DNA from: Hydrolagus affinis
Taxonomy: Eukaryota
NCBI GenBank assembly: GCA_012026655.1
Contig: JAAILG010000006.1
Span: forward strand, 62,001-126,000
Reading direction: 5' to 3'
DNA: 64,000 bases
Shown here: positions 1 to 56,500 of the stretch, piece after piece
Layout: every line of letters begins with the position of its first letter
Numbering within the stretch: position 1 is the stretch's first letter
Notes under the pieces: generated by a model
Database searches by the model: none
Seen by the model: the letters and a program-made list of their open reading frames with translations, nothing else
What the model was told of the DNA's origin: nothing
Program-made: the position numbers and the translations under genes

Positions 1-58
1 TGTTATATCGGCAACTGATCTGAATCAGCTCCAGCCCCATGAATAAGAAGATTAGCTC

Positions 59-3072: not shown

Positions 3073-3340
3073 GAGTCCTGTAGCTCAGTGGTTAAAGCAC
3101 TCGTCTTACTAGCAAGAGACCTGGGTTCAATTCCAGGCAGGAATTTCACATTCCTGATAATAATCGCTCAAACAAATGAATAATAAATTGGTAATTTCAA
3201 TCCATGACTGTTTTTGGGACACTGCTGCCGCGTTTCGCCCACAAACATACAGTCAATTAACTTTTCAGTATATTCTGTGAAGCACTTTGAGATGTCTAGA
3301 AGACGTAAAAAAGCGCGATATCAAATGCAAGGATTATTAT
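3073..3340 (+). mobile_element. tRNA-derived SINE, near full length
   Basis: Head GAGTCCTGTAGCTCAGTGGTTAAAGCAC with B-box GGTTCAATTCC, a partially deleted centre and the tail AAATGCAAGGATTATTAT. Confidence 0.88.
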
Positions 3341-15511: not shown

Positions 15512-15800
15512 CATATACAAAACACTGCAGAAGCTGCAAATCTGAAACAACAACAAAAAATTCCTGTAGGCAGTAAAAAGGAAAAGAAAAGAAAAACATC
15601 CTTCTGGTTCTCTCCCTTTTAATGGAGAATGCACTATACCAAATGCAAGTACAGTATTATTGTTTATTATCAGACTATGAATTCCACAATCTATGGCAGA
15701 TCCCAGGGTAGATGAAGCAAAAACAAAAATCTCTGGGAACACTCAGCAGGTCAGGCAGCATCTATTGAGAAAGGAAAGTGAGTCAAAGTTTTAGGTCCAC
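15512..15800 (+). mobile_element. Two partial left arms of the Penelope-like fold-back element
   Basis: ACAAAACACTGCAGAAGCTGCAAATCTGAAACAA at about 15517 and AAACAAAAATCTCTGGGAACACTCAGCAGGTCAGGCAGCATCTATTGAGAAAGGAAAGTGAGTCAA at about 15720, matching 51978-52100. Confidence 0.75.
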
Positions 15801-15996
15801 CACGTAGCAATTGCTAGAAACATTTCAAAATGACACACAACATGTTGTGAGGAAATCGGATATTTGCAACTGCCAATGCCATTAACAAGATCATTCATAT
15901 TTTCAACCCTAAGGAAACTCAGCATGTGAGGATTGTGAGTGTGCACTCATTTCCACTAGAGTGCTATCCACCAAATGCCTGCTACTAGGATGTGAA

Positions 15997-38996: not shown

Positions 38997-39183
38997 AAAA
39001 CGCAAAATACTGGAAGTCTAAAACAAAAACAGAAATCACTGTGAACACTCAGCAGGTCAGGCAGCATCTAAGGAGAAAGGAAAGTGAGTCGAAAGGAACA
39101 AAGGAAAGTTTGACTCACTTTCTTTTCTTCATAGATGTTGCCTGACCTGCTGAGTGTTTCCAGCAATTTCTGTTTTTGTTGTG
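38997..39183 (+). mobile_element. Penelope-like fold-back element, internally deleted
   Basis: Inverted arms AACAAAAACAGAAAT...CTCAGCAGGTCAGGCAGCATCTA and TAGATGTTGCCTGACCTGCTGAG...ATTTCTGTTTTTGTT. Flanking near-direct repeat GAATCCGAAG / GAATCCTAAG. Confidence 0.8.
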
Positions 39184-48680: not shown

Positions 48681-50504
48681 TCAAGGAGCTTGAACAGAGG
48701 TTATGTTTTAACGATATAGCAATTTGCTTGTGACAACACACTAAATAGAAAATGTCACCATCAAGCTCGTCTATACAACCACACATTATTACCCTGAAGA
48801 ATACATTTACAGTGACATGATAATGTTTTATCGTTATTGAAAAGCTACCGACCTTTCAAGCGTAGTAAACCCTAAAGTCGGCATGTCACAATTGTGCAGC
48901 TTTTAATGAGCGAAAACAGAAATAAAAATCATTGATTAATAAATTGGGAAAATGGATTGAATATTTTTGTTTGCTGCATTCCTAGTCACTTTTGGTATAT
49001 TCAATAAATTTAGTGGAAATTTGAACTTTTAACAGAACAAATCTTTACCCATAAGGCTGCTGAGGCAAAATAAATTGGTATGTTTAAAACGGAGGTAAAG
49101 TTGTTCAAGAGATAGAGAGAAGGGCATTTAATGGATATGGGGAAATGGGGATAAAAGATATGTCATTATCTAATGAAGTCGTGAATTGGGCTTGATGACT
49201 GACATCCTTCTGTGTTTATGTTTCTGTAGAAGGCTTTGTGATGAGGGTTGAAGCAAAATTCTGCCATCAAAATATGATACTCTGAAATGCTTCAGTTAGG
49301 GGAAAGAAATCTTTAGGATTAACACTTCATAGCACAATCTGCAGTTGCTTCACTCAAAACATAAATATACATCTCGGATTTACTGCAGCCACTAATTTGA
49401 TGATAACTACACGCGTAGCTGCTATAACACAGCCTTTGAGCAAAGAGCGGGGTTGGGGGGGTGCAATTCAGATGAAAATCTAAGGGTTGAAATCGTTTGG
49501 ATATGTTTTCATTCTCCTAAGAATCTTGTTCGCTGTTATTGAAAAATCACCCTGCCATAGTACAACCTCCTTTCATTAGGCACAGGCACTTAGACAGATC
49601 AGTGTGTAGTCCGTATCAGTTAGTTGATCTGAGCTCTCCACGTTTTTTCCACATTGATCAGTTAATTAATCCTTCGTGGAAACAATGGAAGCTGCTTTAT
49701 GTATTTGAATACCAACATCAATCTCGTCAGAACAAGGCACTAAATTCTTCGGGAATGTGTGCACATTTTAAATTGACGACATCTGACTGAAATATCTGAT
49801 TGTACTTTGCTGTTTGATAGTGTACAATAAATGTAGACTGCATTGATACTAGGCTTGCATCTTATTTTTTCTGAGAAAACATTTCATTTTTTTATGAGAT
49901 ATGGAACGTCGGGTCACCCAAGACCAAATAAGATCTCTGACCTCCCATTCCCGACTGCGATCATTATAATTATCTTATTCCCCTCTTCTCCTCCCTCTCC
50001 CCTCAGCCCCAGAATTGGCAACTCTATCCAACTCATGTTTGCTCTTGATTATCAGGTCCATATATTCACCACTTTCTGTGTGCAAAGTAGTTTTAATCAT
50101 AATAATAATCGCTGCATTCGATATAGCACCAAAGCATATCTCAAAATGCTTCACCTAATATATTGTAAAGTGAATTTATGTGTATTTGGGATTTGATTTA
50201 AATCTACCATCATCATCTTCCTCCTGGGATGTACCCTTTAGATTTCTACAGTTCCATGCAAATTGTTTTTTGAGATCCTATTTTCCCCCAAATGCTAATT
50301 ATCGCTCCTCATACCTCCATTTCAGGCCACTTGCTATCAAACTGTCCATTTTAAACAACCCTTATCAGTCCGACTGTTCATCCTGATCTCTCGATCTCCT
50401 TATCGGCCACAAAACAATAACGTAACGTTATTTCCTGTAAAGCGGTTTGAACCCGAGCAAGTTTGGTATCATCTGGAAAGTTGGACAACTTAGCTGCTGT
50501 CCCC

Positions 50505-50628
50505 CAAAAAACACAAAATACTGCAGATGCTGGAAATCTGAAACAAAAACAGAAATCGTTGGGAACACTCAGCAGGCTTGACCTGCCGCCTAACCTGCCG
50601 AGTGTTCCCAGCGATTTCTGTTTTTGTT
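50505..50628 (+). mobile_element. Penelope-like fold-back element, short form, with a 15-bp TSD
   Basis: Arms AAACAAAAACAGAAATCGTTGGGAACACTCAGCAGG and CCTGCCGAGTGTTCCCAGCGATTTCTGTTTTTGTTT. Flanks are TTAGCTGCTGTCCCC (50490-50504) and TTAGCTACTGTCCCC (50629-50643). Confidence 0.85.
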
Positions 50629-50659
50629 TTAGCTACTGTCCCCACTTCCAAGTCAACTT

Positions 50660-50990: not shown

Positions 50991-51977
50991 CTTCATTACA
51001 GCCTCCTTCAGTCTTTCAAAGTCTAAATCTCAGACAGCCATGTCTTTTCGGTACCCAGAGTGGTTCATGTAAGAAGAACAGGATTTTGAGTTTCCATGGT
51101 GACAACCAAAGTTAACCCAGTTCCGAGGAATAATAATTTGATGGACACAAGGACAGAACAACTCCTTTCAGAATTGAACTAACTCAACACAAATGGGCAT
51201 CTGGGCTAAAATTCAACGAGTATGAACTGGTTTTAAACTTTTAATAACTTCAGCAAATATATCGCATAATTTACTGGAACGTTTAACCACTCTTCATTTT
51301 GCAGATTTCCCAGAAATGCGTGTTTCTTTCGCAAGTGAAAAGCTGTTGCGTTAAAACAAAACCACCCTTATAAACTACGGTATTATGCAGCTATAAGGGA
51401 ATGATTGATCAAGTGTGGAAATTAAGAAGATATCAGCGTATGTCGTAGAGATTAAATGAATTTGTTATAGATAGACAACGCTGACAATGAGACATACGGG
51501 TCTTAAGTTTTCCAAATGCACTCTATTAGTTTAACAATCTGCTTGCCTTGACTGTTGATAGTGGAAAGAAGCCTCCAATTACACACACAAGACACCAGAG
51601 TCTCCCTTGACTGGATGCAATTTGGTAATCCTGCTATAAATGCTATTAACAAATATCTTAAAACACAAATCTAGGAAGCTCCGATGTTCAGTAATTATAA
51701 TCCTTGCATTTGATATAGCACCTTATTACATCTTTGAGACGTCACAAAGTGACTCACAGAATATATTGTAAAGTCAATTGACAGTAAATTTGTACGCACA
51801 GCTGTGTCCCACAAACCATCACGGATTGAGCTTCATTGCTATGCAAGAAGCTGCAAATTTTTTTTTTTTTTAATTTTTAATTGTTTTGTTTTTTAACCTC
51901 TTTTTTTATCCCTGGAAAAGCAACCTAACAATTGACTAACAATCAGGTACCTATTGACTGTTAGGTAAATAGAGGCA

Positions 51978-52269
51978 AAACACAAAATACTACAAATGCT
52001 GGAAATCTGAAACAAAAACAGAAGTTTCTGGGGAAATTCAGCAGGTCAGGCAGCATCCATGGAGAAAGGAAAAAGAGTCAACGTTTCGGGTCTACAACCT
52101 CAAACTCGAAGCCCTAGTTCTGACGAAGGGTTGTAGACCCGAAACGTTGACTCTTTTTCCTTTCTCCATGGATGAACACAAGAATTAGGAGCAGGAGTAG
52201 CCTGCCCCGCCATTCAATAAGATGCTGCCTGACCTACTGAGTTTCCCCAGCAACTTCTGTTTTTGTTTC
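51978..52269 (+). mobile_element. Penelope-like fold-back element with a perfect 15-bp TSD
   Basis: Inverted arms of about 90 bp (52007-52099 versus 52129-52271, excluding the insert). TSD AGGTAAATAGAGGCA at 51963-51977 and 52270-52284. Confidence 0.88.
52116..52152 (+). ncRNA. Minimal type-I hammerhead ribozyme motif (Penelope-like-element type)
   Basis: Stem I AGTT/GACT, core CTGACGA, stem II GGGT-tgtag-ACCC, GAAAC, the palindromic AACGTT stem III region and the NUH triplet GUU. Confidence 0.65.
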
Positions 52270-53289
52270 AGGTAAATAGAGGCATTTGGAGTAGGAAAAC
52301 TTGTCTAACATTTTGCCCTGCCAGGAACCAAACCCAGGTTTCTCACTTCTGAGGCGAGTGCTCTAATCACTGAGCTACAGGACTCACGTGCGATGCGTGC
52401 AATAAACAAATGTCTTACACACAAATCCACAAAGCTCTGTTGTTCAATGCTTACAATAAACAAAGAATAATTTGACATTCGTTTGTTTGGGACTGTTGCT
52501 AAATAGCTTTTGGGGGAAGATGGTTAAAAGAAAAATGCTTAAAAACATTACATCAGAAAAGTGAATAGATCTTTAGTGAGTCAGAAAATAACTGATATTT
52601 ACACTGCTCATTTGGGAACAGGGTGTACTGTACATATTTTAATGACTGTCTTAGGTCTAGCATTAGTAATGAATCCCCAAGGATAATTACACATCAACCA
52701 TTACTACTGTAGCTTGGCATTTACAGGTGTCCTGAGTCTTCATTTAAGAGCTGCTGTTCACTAACAACATAGTTTTGACAGCTAGTACAGAGATTTATTG
52801 CTACAACTGTGCTGTTTGGGGTTGCGCAATAGCGTCCTGGTCTCAAAGGACGCATTCTGATAGATGATGTTTCAAGTGAGGACCCTGAGTTTTTGTTATT
52901 CTCAGCAGCTTCTTGCATAGTAATGAAGCTCTTCAAAGTGCGCGTTGTGCAGTTCGGTAAGGTTTGGAAACAGTACATAAGGCACACCTCCATGCTGCTA
53001 TGTCGGATTCATTTCCCTCAGCAATTAAGAGCTTCTGTTTGAGAAACAATAAAACAGTGTAACGTAATTGTAAGTTGAAATTCAAAATTAACCCTGCTCA
53101 CTAACATACACATTCCCCCATTTACCTTGCAGAAAGAAGTGCTGTAATATAAGCCTGTACAGATGTTTAGTGCTCCATAAGTAAGCTCGGAAGATTAAAT
53201 ACAAGAATTTTTGTCAATTTAAAATGCTGTTACAAAAAATCTGTCAAAATCTTACTGCATGAAGTTCACTGTTGAAATGCATATCCAGT

Positions 53290-53575
53290 GAATAATATTA
53301 ATAATTCTTGCATTTCATAAAGCGCCTTCTCACATCATTGAGACATCTAAAAGTGCTTCACAGATATAATTGTAAAGTGGATTGACTATGTATTCATCGG
53401 TGAAACACGGCAGCAAGCAGAAAGCAGTATCCCTCAACAGTCATGCATTGAGTGTACCCCTTTTCTTTTGAGGGATTATTATCCCCAAGAAAGCGATCCG
53501 CCAATTGACTAACAATTGAATAAGGAAGCGTGTGCCTAAAATTTTGCCCCACCCGGCAATCGAACCCGGATTCAC
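53290..53575 (-). mobile_element. SINE, long-subfamily remnant
   Basis: Tail, GCCAATTGACTAACAA block and antisense B-box GCAATCGAACCCGG. Confidence 0.75.
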
Positions 53576-56500
53576 CCACCACCCAACCCACCACCCATCT
53601 CATGGTTTCAATACGAGATCAACCATAACAGGTCTTAGGCATACAGCTATTGGATTCGCCTATTAGACTGCAAGTTAACGGGATGTCAAACTAATTCTGA
53701 TTTTGTTTGTTTCGTTAAGCTAAATGCCACAATGCATGTACTGGAAGTCAGAAGGAAGTGTTAAGTCTTCTGCATATCCTGCACACCTAGTCAGTGTATT
53801 AATTATCATAGGACTACCTTACTTCACTGCAAGTAGCATCATTAGCATTATAGGTGTTGACAACAACTTTTGCTCAAAATTTTGCTCTGCACAGCTGGAT
53901 TAAACAGACTTGCTGTATTTATGAGCCTCCATTGGTCCATGAAGACACTGTAAACACTCATCGTTTCACATGCTGTTGTTGTGACTGCTGCTCTTTCTTT
54001 AGTGGTTACAACATCTTCAACAGTGCACTGGGGACTGAGGAATTTTGACTGCAATTTTGTTACCGTACATTCAGTGAGTTTGTCAAAATGCCCACTGTTT
54101 ACTCACAGAGATAACTTTGCCAAGCGGCGTTAGCAATCTGTAACAGCATTGGTGTACATTTAGAATGAAAATGAATGAATGAAAAGTACAGCACGATAAG
54201 TTTACTGACAACAACACATGATAATGTCAGGAATTTGGAGCTCCATCTCAACATGCTAGCTAAACATTTCTCAATAAAACATATTTTACCATGTTCTCCT
54301 GAAAAAAATATGGATTTCAACTTATCAGAGGGTGCTTACAGAAAGTGACATTTTGGCCAGAACTATATTTAAACTCCTCGCTCCCCTTTCTTACACTGTG
54401 CAGTTGCACAGCCAAAATTCAAGGGCATTCTGCCTTCAGTTAACACGATGCAGTTGGCACTGAAGATCTTGTTAAGAGAGGTCAGCAATTTGTTACACTG
54501 TCATTGCACTGAAGAGGTGCGAGTGTTATTCAAGCCAGTTTGTGGTTCCCGAGAGGATAGATTCAGCCTCAGAAGTTGAACAAATTATTCTGCGGGGAAG
54601 CATTTAAGATGGTTGTCCTGACTATTACCATTCGGATAGAACTTCCAGGCAGTTGTTTGAAGTGACTTATAGTGTAAGAAGGCACAAGATCATGAGGTCC
54701 CTCCATTTGAGGATTTATTATTCCCATTGGGTTATCACATGGGCTGCAGGCGTATTCTGAGACCTGAGGCAACTAAAAAGATATGCTGAATTTTGAGCGA
54801 GTAACAATAATACTTGATCAATAATAACTAATTCCTGTTCCATGAGGTTCTGACTCAGAATAATAAATGATAATAAGATTGCCAGTGTGAATGAATGGGC
54901 CATTGGAGAAGGCCAACCTGAGGTTTTCTCCCCTTTTGCTCGTTCCTGAAACTTTGTAGGATAATTCACAAGGGTCACTATGTTTCTCAGCACTTCTGCT
55001 TCTTTGTTAAATCTTCTTGCCTATGTTATGCATCATCAGAGTGGTACACTTGAACATTTTACTAAATCCTGAATCAATTGCCATTGTCTTGGACATCGCC
55101 ACCAATTTTTACAAAGTGCAGTACTCTGCACGTCTAGAAAAAAACGTCCTACCTTATGATCTTTCACCAAAATTATTTTCAGGGCTATCAGAGTATCTCC
55201 CAAATACCTCCATCTGTGCTGTGCTTTACCTGCCTCTTTTGGTGACAACTCGGAGATTCCTCAGTGTTCTTCTCTCCCTCCCACGTTGTTCATTTTCAAT
55301 GTAAACAATTTATTTCATCATTATACAAATCTACTCTGTTCTGCACTGCCGCCCTTCCACCTTGCAACGTAACAGCTTGCGTGAAGTGTTTGAGGTGTCT
55401 CAATAACGTGATCAGGCGCTTTATCGAATGCAAGAATTATTTTTATTATAATTCATTCTCTATCTCTCACTGTGCTGAAATCAAAATGGATCGTTCAAAT
55501 TCATTCTTTTTCAGGACCTCAAGATTGTGACTCTCCTCACCTTTCTTCAGTTCTCCATTTCTCAGACAGGCCTTTAACCCCAAATTTAATGCCACCTAAA
55601 TACTTTGCTACCACCCCTAAAGGTGTTTTTGAATTACTGTATACTAAAGATATTGACTGTTTGACTCAGATTCTCACTGCTCAGAAAAGCTATATTTAAT
55701 ATTGTTTTCTTTTTTTTATCAAACCCCAAATCTTGGCTGCAGCCTTGCAAGCGTGTGAAATGTGACGTGAATTTGTACTTGGGAACATTCAGAACGAATA
55801 TATAATTTTGGCCTTGATGTGTCATCTATAAATGAATAGACTTTCTGTACTTTGCATTAAAACAAGCACCGAAGCCTTAATTTCTACAGTTCAGGCTACG
55901 CCATGCCTCGCCATGCCCTTGGAAATCAACCTGATGTTCATTTGGAATGCATTGTCATGCACCTGCAATAACTCAGAAGCAAAAATAAATCCCACATGTT
56001 GCCTTGCAAATTTCCAAATGCTTCGATTTCTTAATTCAGACAAAAGGCAGTGTTTTTATTAATGCTATATGTTTATTTGTGTGGTGGTTGGGGGTGGGGG
56101 GTCGGGGTGCGTGGAATGTGGCTAGCATGCATTCTGAAATGTGGAATAGCACTTCAGCTCAGCAAATAAAAATATAAAAACACACTATTATTATTTTCTT
56201 TATTTCCAGAAACCAAACCGATAACTAGAGAAATGTAGAAATGAATTCCCAAATATTGCTTTCTAACAGCCATAAAAGAGATCTAGTAGTAATAGAGATT
56301 TGATTTCAGATCCAATATGAAAGAGAAACAATTTTTTGTAAAAAAAATGCTTTTGAAAGATAATAATCAGCATTTCTGAAAGTAGATCGTTTCCACCCCC
56401 TCCCCCTCCCCCACCCCCAGCCCCTGCAAAAAAAAGTAACCCGACATTCATTGGAAAAGACTATTTCATTATGAACATTGCAATCTGTAGTGAGTCTATT

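What the first reader, a model, noticed from the sequence alone, without database searches (positions are those of the whole stretch)
52116..52152. Hammerhead ribozyme core at the apex of a fold-back retroelement
Seen: AGTT-CTGACGA-A-GGGT(tgtag)ACCC-GAAAC-GTT-GACT, containing all hammerhead core nucleotides, with stems I and II and a palindromic AACGTT in place of stem III. Established: Penelope-like elements carry minimal type-I hammerheads that cleave as dimers through a palindromic stem III. Inference: the 3' two-thirds of the ribozyme is complementary to the element's left arm, while CTGACGA sits in the loop. A transcript through the whole element would therefore sequester the ribozyme, and one lacking the left arm would release it. 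This could act as a built-in conformational switch.
Basis: partly seen in the sequence, partly recalled or inferred. Interest (0 to 1): 0.7.

Follow-up and report, generated by a model that had tools for sequence, protein, structure and literature searches.

The report
Penelope stub with hammerhead, no switch
This is a real miniature hammerhead-ribozyme motif inside a short, broken copy of a Penelope-type jumping gene with thousands of relatives in this genome; the hairpin around it is likely a by-product of how such copies are pasted in rather than a built-in switch, and the relatives' ends pile up at the ribozyme's front edge, likely marking where the element's RNA begins.

Summary
The motif is real: a minimal type-I hammerhead (52116-52152), with 324 exact copies in the genome against 0 in the control. 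Long copies run into an RT/GIY-YIG ORF with a Neptune-type CX4CxxC linker, so it is the ribozyme of a Penelope-like element (PLE). The 293-nt fold-back has a 14-bp target duplication and a tail on one arm only, the published PLE insertion anatomy. The switch is not supported. Folding confirms that the left arm would sequester the ribozyme (38 kcal/mol), but this geometry occurs in 5 of 100 exact-ribozyme copies, and arm ends vary from copy to copy. The family holds a more useful signal. 45 of 95 arms end at -1..+11, the ribozyme's front edge (2.8 expected), and 1 ends at the cleavage site. The edge is sharp at 0/+1 in an initiator-like CCAGTTC. All 43 fold-backs carry exactly one tail. Likely reading: RT runs off the RNA's 5' end and copies uncleaved RNA. 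This scan noted the same pile-up before in other genomes; my literature searches did not find it in print. Cleavage and the start site are untested.

The parts
51963..51976 (.). left target-site duplication (14 bp)
   Evidence: identical 14-mer at 52270-52283
51977..52006 (-). 30-nt 'tail' extension, present on the left arm only
   Evidence: matches the optional tail of family copies; absent from the right arm
51977..52099 (-). left arm: inverted, 5'-truncated copy of the element's end, stopping at ribozyme position +14, so it lacks CUGACGA
52100..52108 (.). junction between the arms; likely a degenerate piece of the upstream pLTR with a 3-nt insertion
   Evidence: compared by eye with family copies; inference
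52109..52269 (+). right arm: sense copy from at least -6 to the first RT start site, no tail
   Evidence: 100% identical to other copies over 52109-52174
52116..52152 (+). minimal type-I hammerhead ribozyme motif: stem I 52116-19/52149-52, core 52120-26, extra A 52127, stem II 52128-40, GAAA 52141-44, palindrome 52143-48, predicted cut 52148|52149
52114..52120 (+). initiator-like YYANWYY (consensus recalled) at the position where family copies end; putative RNA 5' end at 52115/52116
   Evidence: sequence; pile-up; start site itself untested
52175..52220 (+). 46-nt piece of a different genomic repeat inserted in the right arm only, flanked by a 4-nt GATG duplication
   Evidence: matches in several unrelated loci
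52270..52283 (.). right target-site duplication (14 bp)

Best explanation
The motif is the minimal hammerhead of a Penelope-like retrotransposon with a Neptune-type linker, sitting in a short non-coding insertion whose fold-back was likely assembled at integration from two separately primed cDNAs, so the ribozyme's partial burial is likely accidental and not a switch. Shown: the parent unit runs ribozyme, leader, tail, ORF (RT, CX4CxxC linker, GIY-YIG), 3'UTR, ribozyme, tail; every fold-back examined has one arm with the tail and one without; arm 5' ends pile up at the ribozyme's front edge and not at its cut site. Inferred: the endonuclease nicks both strands about 14 bp apart; RT primes at each nick, once from each of two neighbouring RNA start sites; the two cDNAs are joined head to head. 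Also inferred: the main template is uncleaved RNA that begins at position 0/+1, so copies primed near the RNA's 5' end run off there after about 105-137 nt, while copies primed at the 3' repeat truncate at random. In the parent RNA the ribozyme would cleave slowly, as a dimer or with help from the element's protein. At this locus it would be inactive in any transcript that includes the left arm.
For: Parent element: GIY-YIG E=2e-4 and RVT_1 E=0.0018, both just under or below Pfam cut-offs; DKG and YIDD motifs read in the ORFs; CX4CxxC in 4 of 4 aligned copies; 3'UTR-ribozyme-tail-leader read-through in L231 and ribozyme-tail-leader-ORF in L186/L196/L232. Anatomy: 14-bp TSD; 43 of 43 fold-backs (42 independent) have exactly one tail, while 24 of 45 solo copies have it (about 2e-13 if arms chose independently). 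This anatomy is described in PMC8557442 and PMC3846280, and two RT start sites bounding the tail in PMC11167929. Geometry: window type in 5 of 100 and 5 of 44. Run-off: 45 of 95 arms end at -1..+11 against 2.8 expected, none at -12..-2, 1 at +33..35; 36 of 100 exact-ribozyme copies end at 0/+1, 16 at -1..-9, 48 run on 12 nt or more. Long copies with a 5' repeat begin at +2 or -1 (three independent cases). Internal ORF-to-ribozyme or leader-to-ribozyme jumps land at -1..+1 in 5 of 8 independent junctions seen. Related subfamilies show the same edge by eye. PMC11167929 found unprocessed RNA to be the main substrate in vitro.
Against: No direct RNA 5'-end data: polyA reads from a related organism showed no molecule starts at +1 (library unsuited). 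The pile-up is smeared to +11 with a second peak at +9/+10 (11 of 95), which run-off alone does not explain. A cap-derived G before +1 is not clear (7 of 17). In D. virilis Penelope the start site lies 46 nt upstream of a 75-nt intron (PMC2377424) that ends at helix I (PMC4209133), and CCCCAG at -3..+2 also looks like a splice acceptor. The window copy's own right arm extends past the edge, so it is not a run-off copy. Genome-wide, 14 copies begin at the cut site against 5 at a control site (p=0.03), a small excess. No intact ORF was seen in the copies examined.
Confidence: 0.75

Rival explanations
1. One reading: the left arm is a designed antisense lock, and transcripts lacking it release an active ribozyme.
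For: Sequestration is computed at 37.9 kcal/mol with the arm and 4.0-5.3 without. If the promoter is internal, a transcript starting at +1 would indeed lack the arm.
Against: The geometry is present in 5 of 100 copies. In fold-backs the partner covers the whole core in 24 of 44 cases and misses the ribozyme in 14 of 44. Each junction inspected is different. There is one intact ribozyme at the locus, and the 6-bp palindrome duplex is only -3.5 kcal/mol. A single S. mansoni min-HHR showed no cleavage (PMC4209133). No Pfam-recognisable host ORF was found among 114 in the window.
Confidence: 0.04
2. The pile-up marks a splice acceptor: the template is spliced RNA whose intron ends at CAG|TT (+2|+3), and RT falls off or jumps at the exon junction or in a very short first exon.
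For: Pyrimidine-rich run ending in CCCCAG directly before +3; precedent in D. virilis Penelope.
Against: No shared upstream exon is seen at the junctions of the 43 copies ending at +1..-3. 25 of these 43 have C at 0, and by the way they were selected all keep the AG. Internal jump sites in the ORF were not at an evident GT donor in the one case inspected.
Confidence: 0.12
3. The pile-up is an RT property: the enzyme stalls or is displaced just after copying the ribozyme fold, on a longer RNA.
For: Smear from +18 to 0 with a second peak at +9/+10; half of the copies that reach +1 continue (48 of 100).
Against: Structure should stop RT on entering a stem from its 3' side (+37, +25; general knowledge), where the rate is background. 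The edge is sharp: 19 copies at 0 and 2 at -1.
Confidence: 0.12
4. Self-cleavage products are the templates, so the genome records the ribozyme's cuts.
For: 14 copies begin at +34 against 5 at +29.
Against: 2094 matches read through the site. 1 of 83 arms reaching the site ends at +33..35, with 1.1 expected. 7 of the 14 are preceded by TCA, mostly the run-in of an antisense ribozyme copy sharing GA with the +34 sequence; without them the count is 7 against 5, p=0.39.
Confidence: 0.05

Closest known systems
Minimal type-I hammerheads (min-HHR) of metazoan PLEs (Cervera and de la Pena 2014, PMC4209133; parts 1-2 of 4 of the text read)
   Same: Short helix I (4 bp), extra nucleotide between A9 and G10.1, G10.1-C11.1 pair, palindromic 15.2-16.2 with no loop 3, located in the pLTR, thousands of solo truncated copies.
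   Different: Stem II is 4-5 bp, not the 7-8 bp of S. mansoni. The cut triplet is GUU in 166 of 167 copies; GUC and GUA are given as fastest in PMC3138052 (passages).
Complex insertions of EN+ PLEs: inverted 5'-truncated copy, one-sided 30-40 bp tail, TSD (PMC8557442 Fig. 2 and PMC3846280; passages read)
   Same: Head-to-head inverted arm, 30-nt tail on one arm, 14-bp TSD, microhomology at junctions.
   Different: Here no ORF lies between the arms. The passages read do not give the 43-of-43 one-tail count or a pile-up of ends at the ribozyme edge.
Poseidon PAc of Anolis (Frangieh 2024, PMC11167929; parts 1-2 of 4 read)
   Same: Two RT start sites bounding the tail, both strands nicked and extended, uncleaved RNA used as template, ribozyme just upstream of the RT start sites.
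   Different: PAc is Penelope/Poseidon clade and its ORF starts in stem II. Here the linker is Neptune-type and the first in-frame-looking ATG lies about 175 nt downstream of +1 (read by eye).
Penelope of D. virilis (PMC2377424; passages read)
   Same: Internal promoter in the pLTR upstream of the ORF; tandem and inverted forms.
   Different: Its start site is 46 nt upstream of a 75-nt intron that ends at helix I; here the inferred RNA end coincides with helix I and no intron was shown.

Membership tests
Type-I minimal hammerhead ribozyme of PLEs | Core C3 U4 G5 A6 N7 G8 A9 / G12 A13 A14 A15.1 / U16.1 H17 | tested here: met
   Complete in the window copy; majority base at every core position in 167 copies, whole core intact in 86 of 167.
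Type-I minimal hammerhead ribozyme of PLEs | Stem II with G10.1-C11.1 and an extra base after A9 | tested here: met
   pairing was not imposed in the search.
Type-I minimal hammerhead ribozyme of PLEs | Stem I closing the 5' and 3' ends | tested here: met
   4 bp, pair probability 0.54-0.78 in the isolated 37-mer.
Type-I minimal hammerhead ribozyme of PLEs | Palindromic stem III allowing a dimer | tested here: met
   AACGUU self-duplex -3.5 kcal/mol; the unconstrained two-strand fold did not give the dimeric hammerhead.
Type-I minimal hammerhead ribozyme of PLEs | Structure-preserving variation across the family | tested here: met
   Wobble pairs change to Watson-Crick (stem I: U.G 122, C-G 24; stem II: U.G 141, C-G 20, of 167). 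First stem II pair A-U 12, A.C 3, G.U 30, G-C 55 in the first 100 of 366, counted by eye, Fisher p=0.0016. This is one subfamily, so one evolutionary event.
Type-I minimal hammerhead ribozyme of PLEs | Self-cleavage after H17 | not testable with these tools
   Genomic footprint at +34 is weak or absent; RNA lays inconclusive.
Rfam hammerhead families | Covariance-model score at gathering threshold | tested here: not met
   No hammerhead family at gathering or E<=10; likely because stem III is absent.
EN+ Penelope-like elements | Single ORF with RT and C-terminal GIY-YIG | tested here: met
   In long copies, not in the window copy: DKG, YIDD and GIY-YIG-type motifs in order; Pfam hits just under or below cut-off; all copies seen are broken.
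EN+ Penelope-like elements | pLTR with hammerhead in tandem arrangement; inverted 5' copy, tail, TSD | tested here: met
Neptune clade | CX2-5CxxC linker between RT and EN | tested here: met
   CX4CxxC in 4 of 4 aligned copies; definition from PMC8557442 passages. Nematis also has a Zn-finger-like linker.
Neptune clade | RT phylogeny groups with Neptune references | not tested
   No reference PLE proteins were fetched.
Riboswitch-like conformational switch | Conserved alternative pairing of comparable energy across copies | tested here: not met
   5 of 100 copies; 38 kcal/mol gap.

The most novel reading that the evidence does not exclude
The element's mRNA starts at the first nucleotide of the ribozyme's helix I, so the hammerhead is the very 5' end of the transcript and its cut would remove a capped 33-34-nt leader, acting as a slow off-switch or unit-length processing step rather than making the template. 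The thousands of stubs are run-off cDNAs, and each fold-back is made by one complex that uses each of the two RT start sites exactly once.
Probability: 0.5. Interest if true: 0.55.

Novelty: new member of a known kind. Interest (0 to 1): 0.33.

Why it matters
As a locus it matters little: one of thousands of dead stubs. As a family it bears on two open points in PLE biology, how the inverted and tailed insertions arise and what the hammerhead is for. The genome gives countable predictions: an RNA end at 0/+1, uncleaved template, and strict one-tail-per-fold-back coupling. Each is testable by CAGE and by the in vitro system already published for a related element.

Tried and rejected
Rfam at two thresholds: no hammerhead model hit; the miRNA hits are generic hairpin matches below gathering scores. 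Host gene: 0 of 114 stop-to-stop frames of 75 aa or more matched Pfam; short exons would be missed, so a host transcript is neither shown nor excluded. Sequencing runs: no RNA holder listed. PolyA single-cell reads of a related organism (one sample, most reads 90-95% alike or less) cover the family on both strands, 67-82% run on into unlike sequence, and show no pile of starts or ends at +1 or the cut site; uninformative for RNA ends. Cap-derived G: 7 of 17, inconclusive. PDB sequence search with the RT piece: no match at E<=1. Longer stem II families: 180 matches against 84 control, mostly indel variants of the same families. The sigma-70 promoter scan is irrelevant to a eukaryote. A type-III fold using an upstream AACGTC was considered by eye and dropped because no stem I follows. 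A DPE-like spacing was considered and is one base off (consensus recalled). Lunse 2017 on dimer cleavage is not held and is known here only through a review passage (PMC6765202); it and the supplements of the papers read, which I did not open, may bear on whether this motif or the pile-up is already described. One literature search returned only shark biology. The sequence look-up in earlier findings gave one unrelated hit.

Full report
Observation. The sequence at 52116-52152 is as described. It has a 4-bp stem I, CUGACGA, an extra A, a 4-5-bp stem II, GAAA, the palindrome AACGTT and a predicted cut after GUU at 52148. It lies in a fold-back whose arms are 100% and 94% complementary (z = -20). 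Rfam has no model that scores it. It is far from chance. The exact 37-mer occurs 324 times in the 1.11-Gb genome against 0 for the control. The core with its 14 middle bases left free occurs 4234 times against 18. Positions below count the first A of stem I as +1 (window 52116).

What it belongs to. Long copies extend upstream through a pyrimidine-rich 3'UTR into an ORF with DKG, YIDD, a CX4CxxC linker and a GIY-YIG-type domain. Pfam gives GIY-YIG E=2e-4 (21.9 bits, cut-off 22.6) and RVT_1 E=0.0018 (below cut-off). Other copies show ribozyme, leader and tail running into the ORF start, and one (L231) reads from the 3'UTR through ribozyme and tail into the leader, which is the tandem junction. 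This is a Penelope-like element with a Neptune-type linker; no phylogeny was run. All ORFs seen are broken. That the host looks like a cartilaginous fish is recalled from the repeats, not tested.

Is the fold under selection? Copies decay neutrally, so only differences between subfamilies count. In 167 ungapped copies (loci chosen by identity to the window ribozyme were left out) the two wobble pairs change to Watson-Crick pairs: stem I U.G 122, C-G 24; stem II U.G 141, C-G 20. In the first 100 of 366 matches of a related pattern the first stem II pair is A-U 12, A.C 3, G.U 30, G-C 55, counted by eye (Fisher p=0.0016). The cut triplet is GUU in 166 of 167.

Anatomy of the window copy. A 14-bp target duplication (51963-51976, 52270-52283) bounds it. 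The left arm is an inverted copy from +14 to the end of a 30-nt tail. The right arm runs from at least -6 to just before the tail and holds a 46-nt piece of another repeat. An inverted 5'-truncated copy, a one-sided 30-40-bp tail and a TSD are the published PLE anatomy (PMC8557442, passages; PMC3846280, passages). The tail lies between two RT start sites in the Anolis element (PMC11167929, parts 1-2 of 4).

The switch. Folding agrees that the left arm buries the ribozyme: forcing the hammerhead costs 37.9 kcal/mol in the whole element, 5.3 without the left arm and 4.0 from +1. The geometry is not a family trait. Among the first 100 of the 324 exact copies, 24 have an inverted partner within 300 nt and 5 are of the window type; a 1.5-kb look at the first 30 found 12 with a partner. 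A second sample was anchored downstream of the ribozyme (first 100 of 2230 matches). It gave 88 insertions after merging pairs, with about one place lost to filters: 43 fold-backs and 45 solo. Of 44 ribozyme-bearing arms in the fold-backs, the partner covers the whole core in 24, misses the ribozyme in 14, is of the window type in 5 and ends at +6..+12 in 1. The locus has one intact ribozyme; the palindrome duplex is -3.5 kcal/mol, and a single min-HHR did not cleave in PMC4209133 (parts 1-2 of 4). No host ORF was recognised (0 of 114). The switch is best read as an accident of where one cDNA stopped.

What the family records. First, all 43 fold-backs (42 independent; two are a duplicated insertion) have exactly one tailed arm, whereas 24 of 45 solo copies have the tail. 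Independent choice would give about 2e-13. The two arms are thus made in a coupled way, likely one from each RT start site. Second, 5' ends are not random. Of 95 distinct arms (from 96 of the first 100 places; 4 were fetched later and used only), 45 end at -1..+11, none at -12..-2 and 25 further upstream. The background rate of 0.0044 per nt predicts 2.8 (both arms of 11 fold-backs are counted, so arms are not fully independent). The edge is sharp: of 100 exact-ribozyme copies 17 start at +1, 19 at 0, 2 at -1, 14 at -2..-9 and 48 run on. It lies in CCAGTTC, which fits the initiator consensus YYANWYY (recalled). Long copies that include the 5' repeat begin at +2 or -1 (L186/191/192/195, likely one event; L196; L232). 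Internal jumps land at -1..+1 in 5 of 8 independent junctions seen (L182, L183, L186/195/198, L196, L055; not L181, L190, L013). Third, the cut site is nearly silent: 1 of 83 arms ends at +33..35, with 1.1 expected. Genome-wide, 14 copies start at +34 behind three mismatches, against 5 at +29 and 2094 that read through. The excess (p=0.03) goes when the 7 TCA-preceded junctions, mostly microhomology to an antisense ribozyme copy, are removed (p=0.39); they could still be true cut-site starts.

Mechanism. Shown: order of parts, TSD, one-tail rule, pile-up. Inferred: both strands are nicked about 14 bp apart; RT primes at both nicks from two adjacent RNA sites; the cDNAs join head to head; the template is uncleaved RNA starting at 0/+1, with read-through RNA giving the copies that run on. 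Rivals for the pile-up are a splice acceptor at +2|+3 (precedent in D. virilis; PMC2377424 passages) and an RT stall. Against my reading: no RNA-end data (inconclusive), an unexplained peak at +9/+10, no clear cap G (7 of 17), and the window copy's own arms (+14 and -6 or beyond) are not run-off ends.

Novelty. Ribozyme and anatomy are known, so this is a new member of a known kind. The pile-up was not found in three searches of the held library nor in the passages read; Lunse 2017 and the supplements were not seen. I reached it before consulting the scan's notes. Those notes report it in other genomes; they are unchecked AI notes and no support. Two of them report cut-site starts, which prompted and were not borne out as a major class here.

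Noticed in passing
window 52313-52384 (-) and 3074-3145 (+): tRNA-like heads (Rfam tRNA 46.9 and 40 bits), likely tRNA-derived SINEs; the first lies 30 nt from the insertion.
   Followed up: no
window 50508-50635, 39005-39180, 15713-15803: Three older relatives of the same PLE end, about 80-87% alike: two fold-backs and one solo copy, none with an intact ribozyme. The left arm at 39005-39090 stops aligning at the position of the cut site, in degenerate sequence.
   Followed up: partly
window 52175-52220: 46-nt internally deleted piece of another abundant repeat inside the right arm only, flanked by GATG; either a later insertion or a template jump. Likeness to a CR1/SINE 3' end is recalled.
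   Followed up: partly
L182, L183, L186/L195/L198, L196, L055: Internally deleted copies in which a piece of the ORF or leader is joined to the ribozyme at -1..+1, likely template jumps after run-off.
   Followed up: partly
L036 and other long copies, about -42 to -35 from the ribozyme: An upstream TTAACGTC could pair over 7 bp with the ribozyme's ACGTTGA and carries a GUC, but no stem I follows and no ends pile up there; absent from the window copy.
   Followed up: no
L232, L196 leader: Two acceptor-like AG sites in the leader, one at the tail start and one just before the likely start codon; no donor identified (read by eye).
   Followed up: no
window 50100-50176, 51692-51782, 53296-53386, 55389-55449: Copies of another dispersed repeat at about 1.6-kb spacing; similar sequence flanks many PLE stubs in the fetched loci, possibly a preferred AT-rich target.
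   Followed up: no
window 51828-51854 / 52905-52931: 27-nt inverted repeat, 96% complementary, 1050 nt apart, enclosing the insertion and the tRNA-like head.
   Followed up: no
L231:1150-1700 and L196:1150-2200: PolyA reads of a related organism carry family copies on both strands, including strand-switch joints that fit transcribed fold-backs, so such hairpins likely enter host RNA.
   Followed up: no
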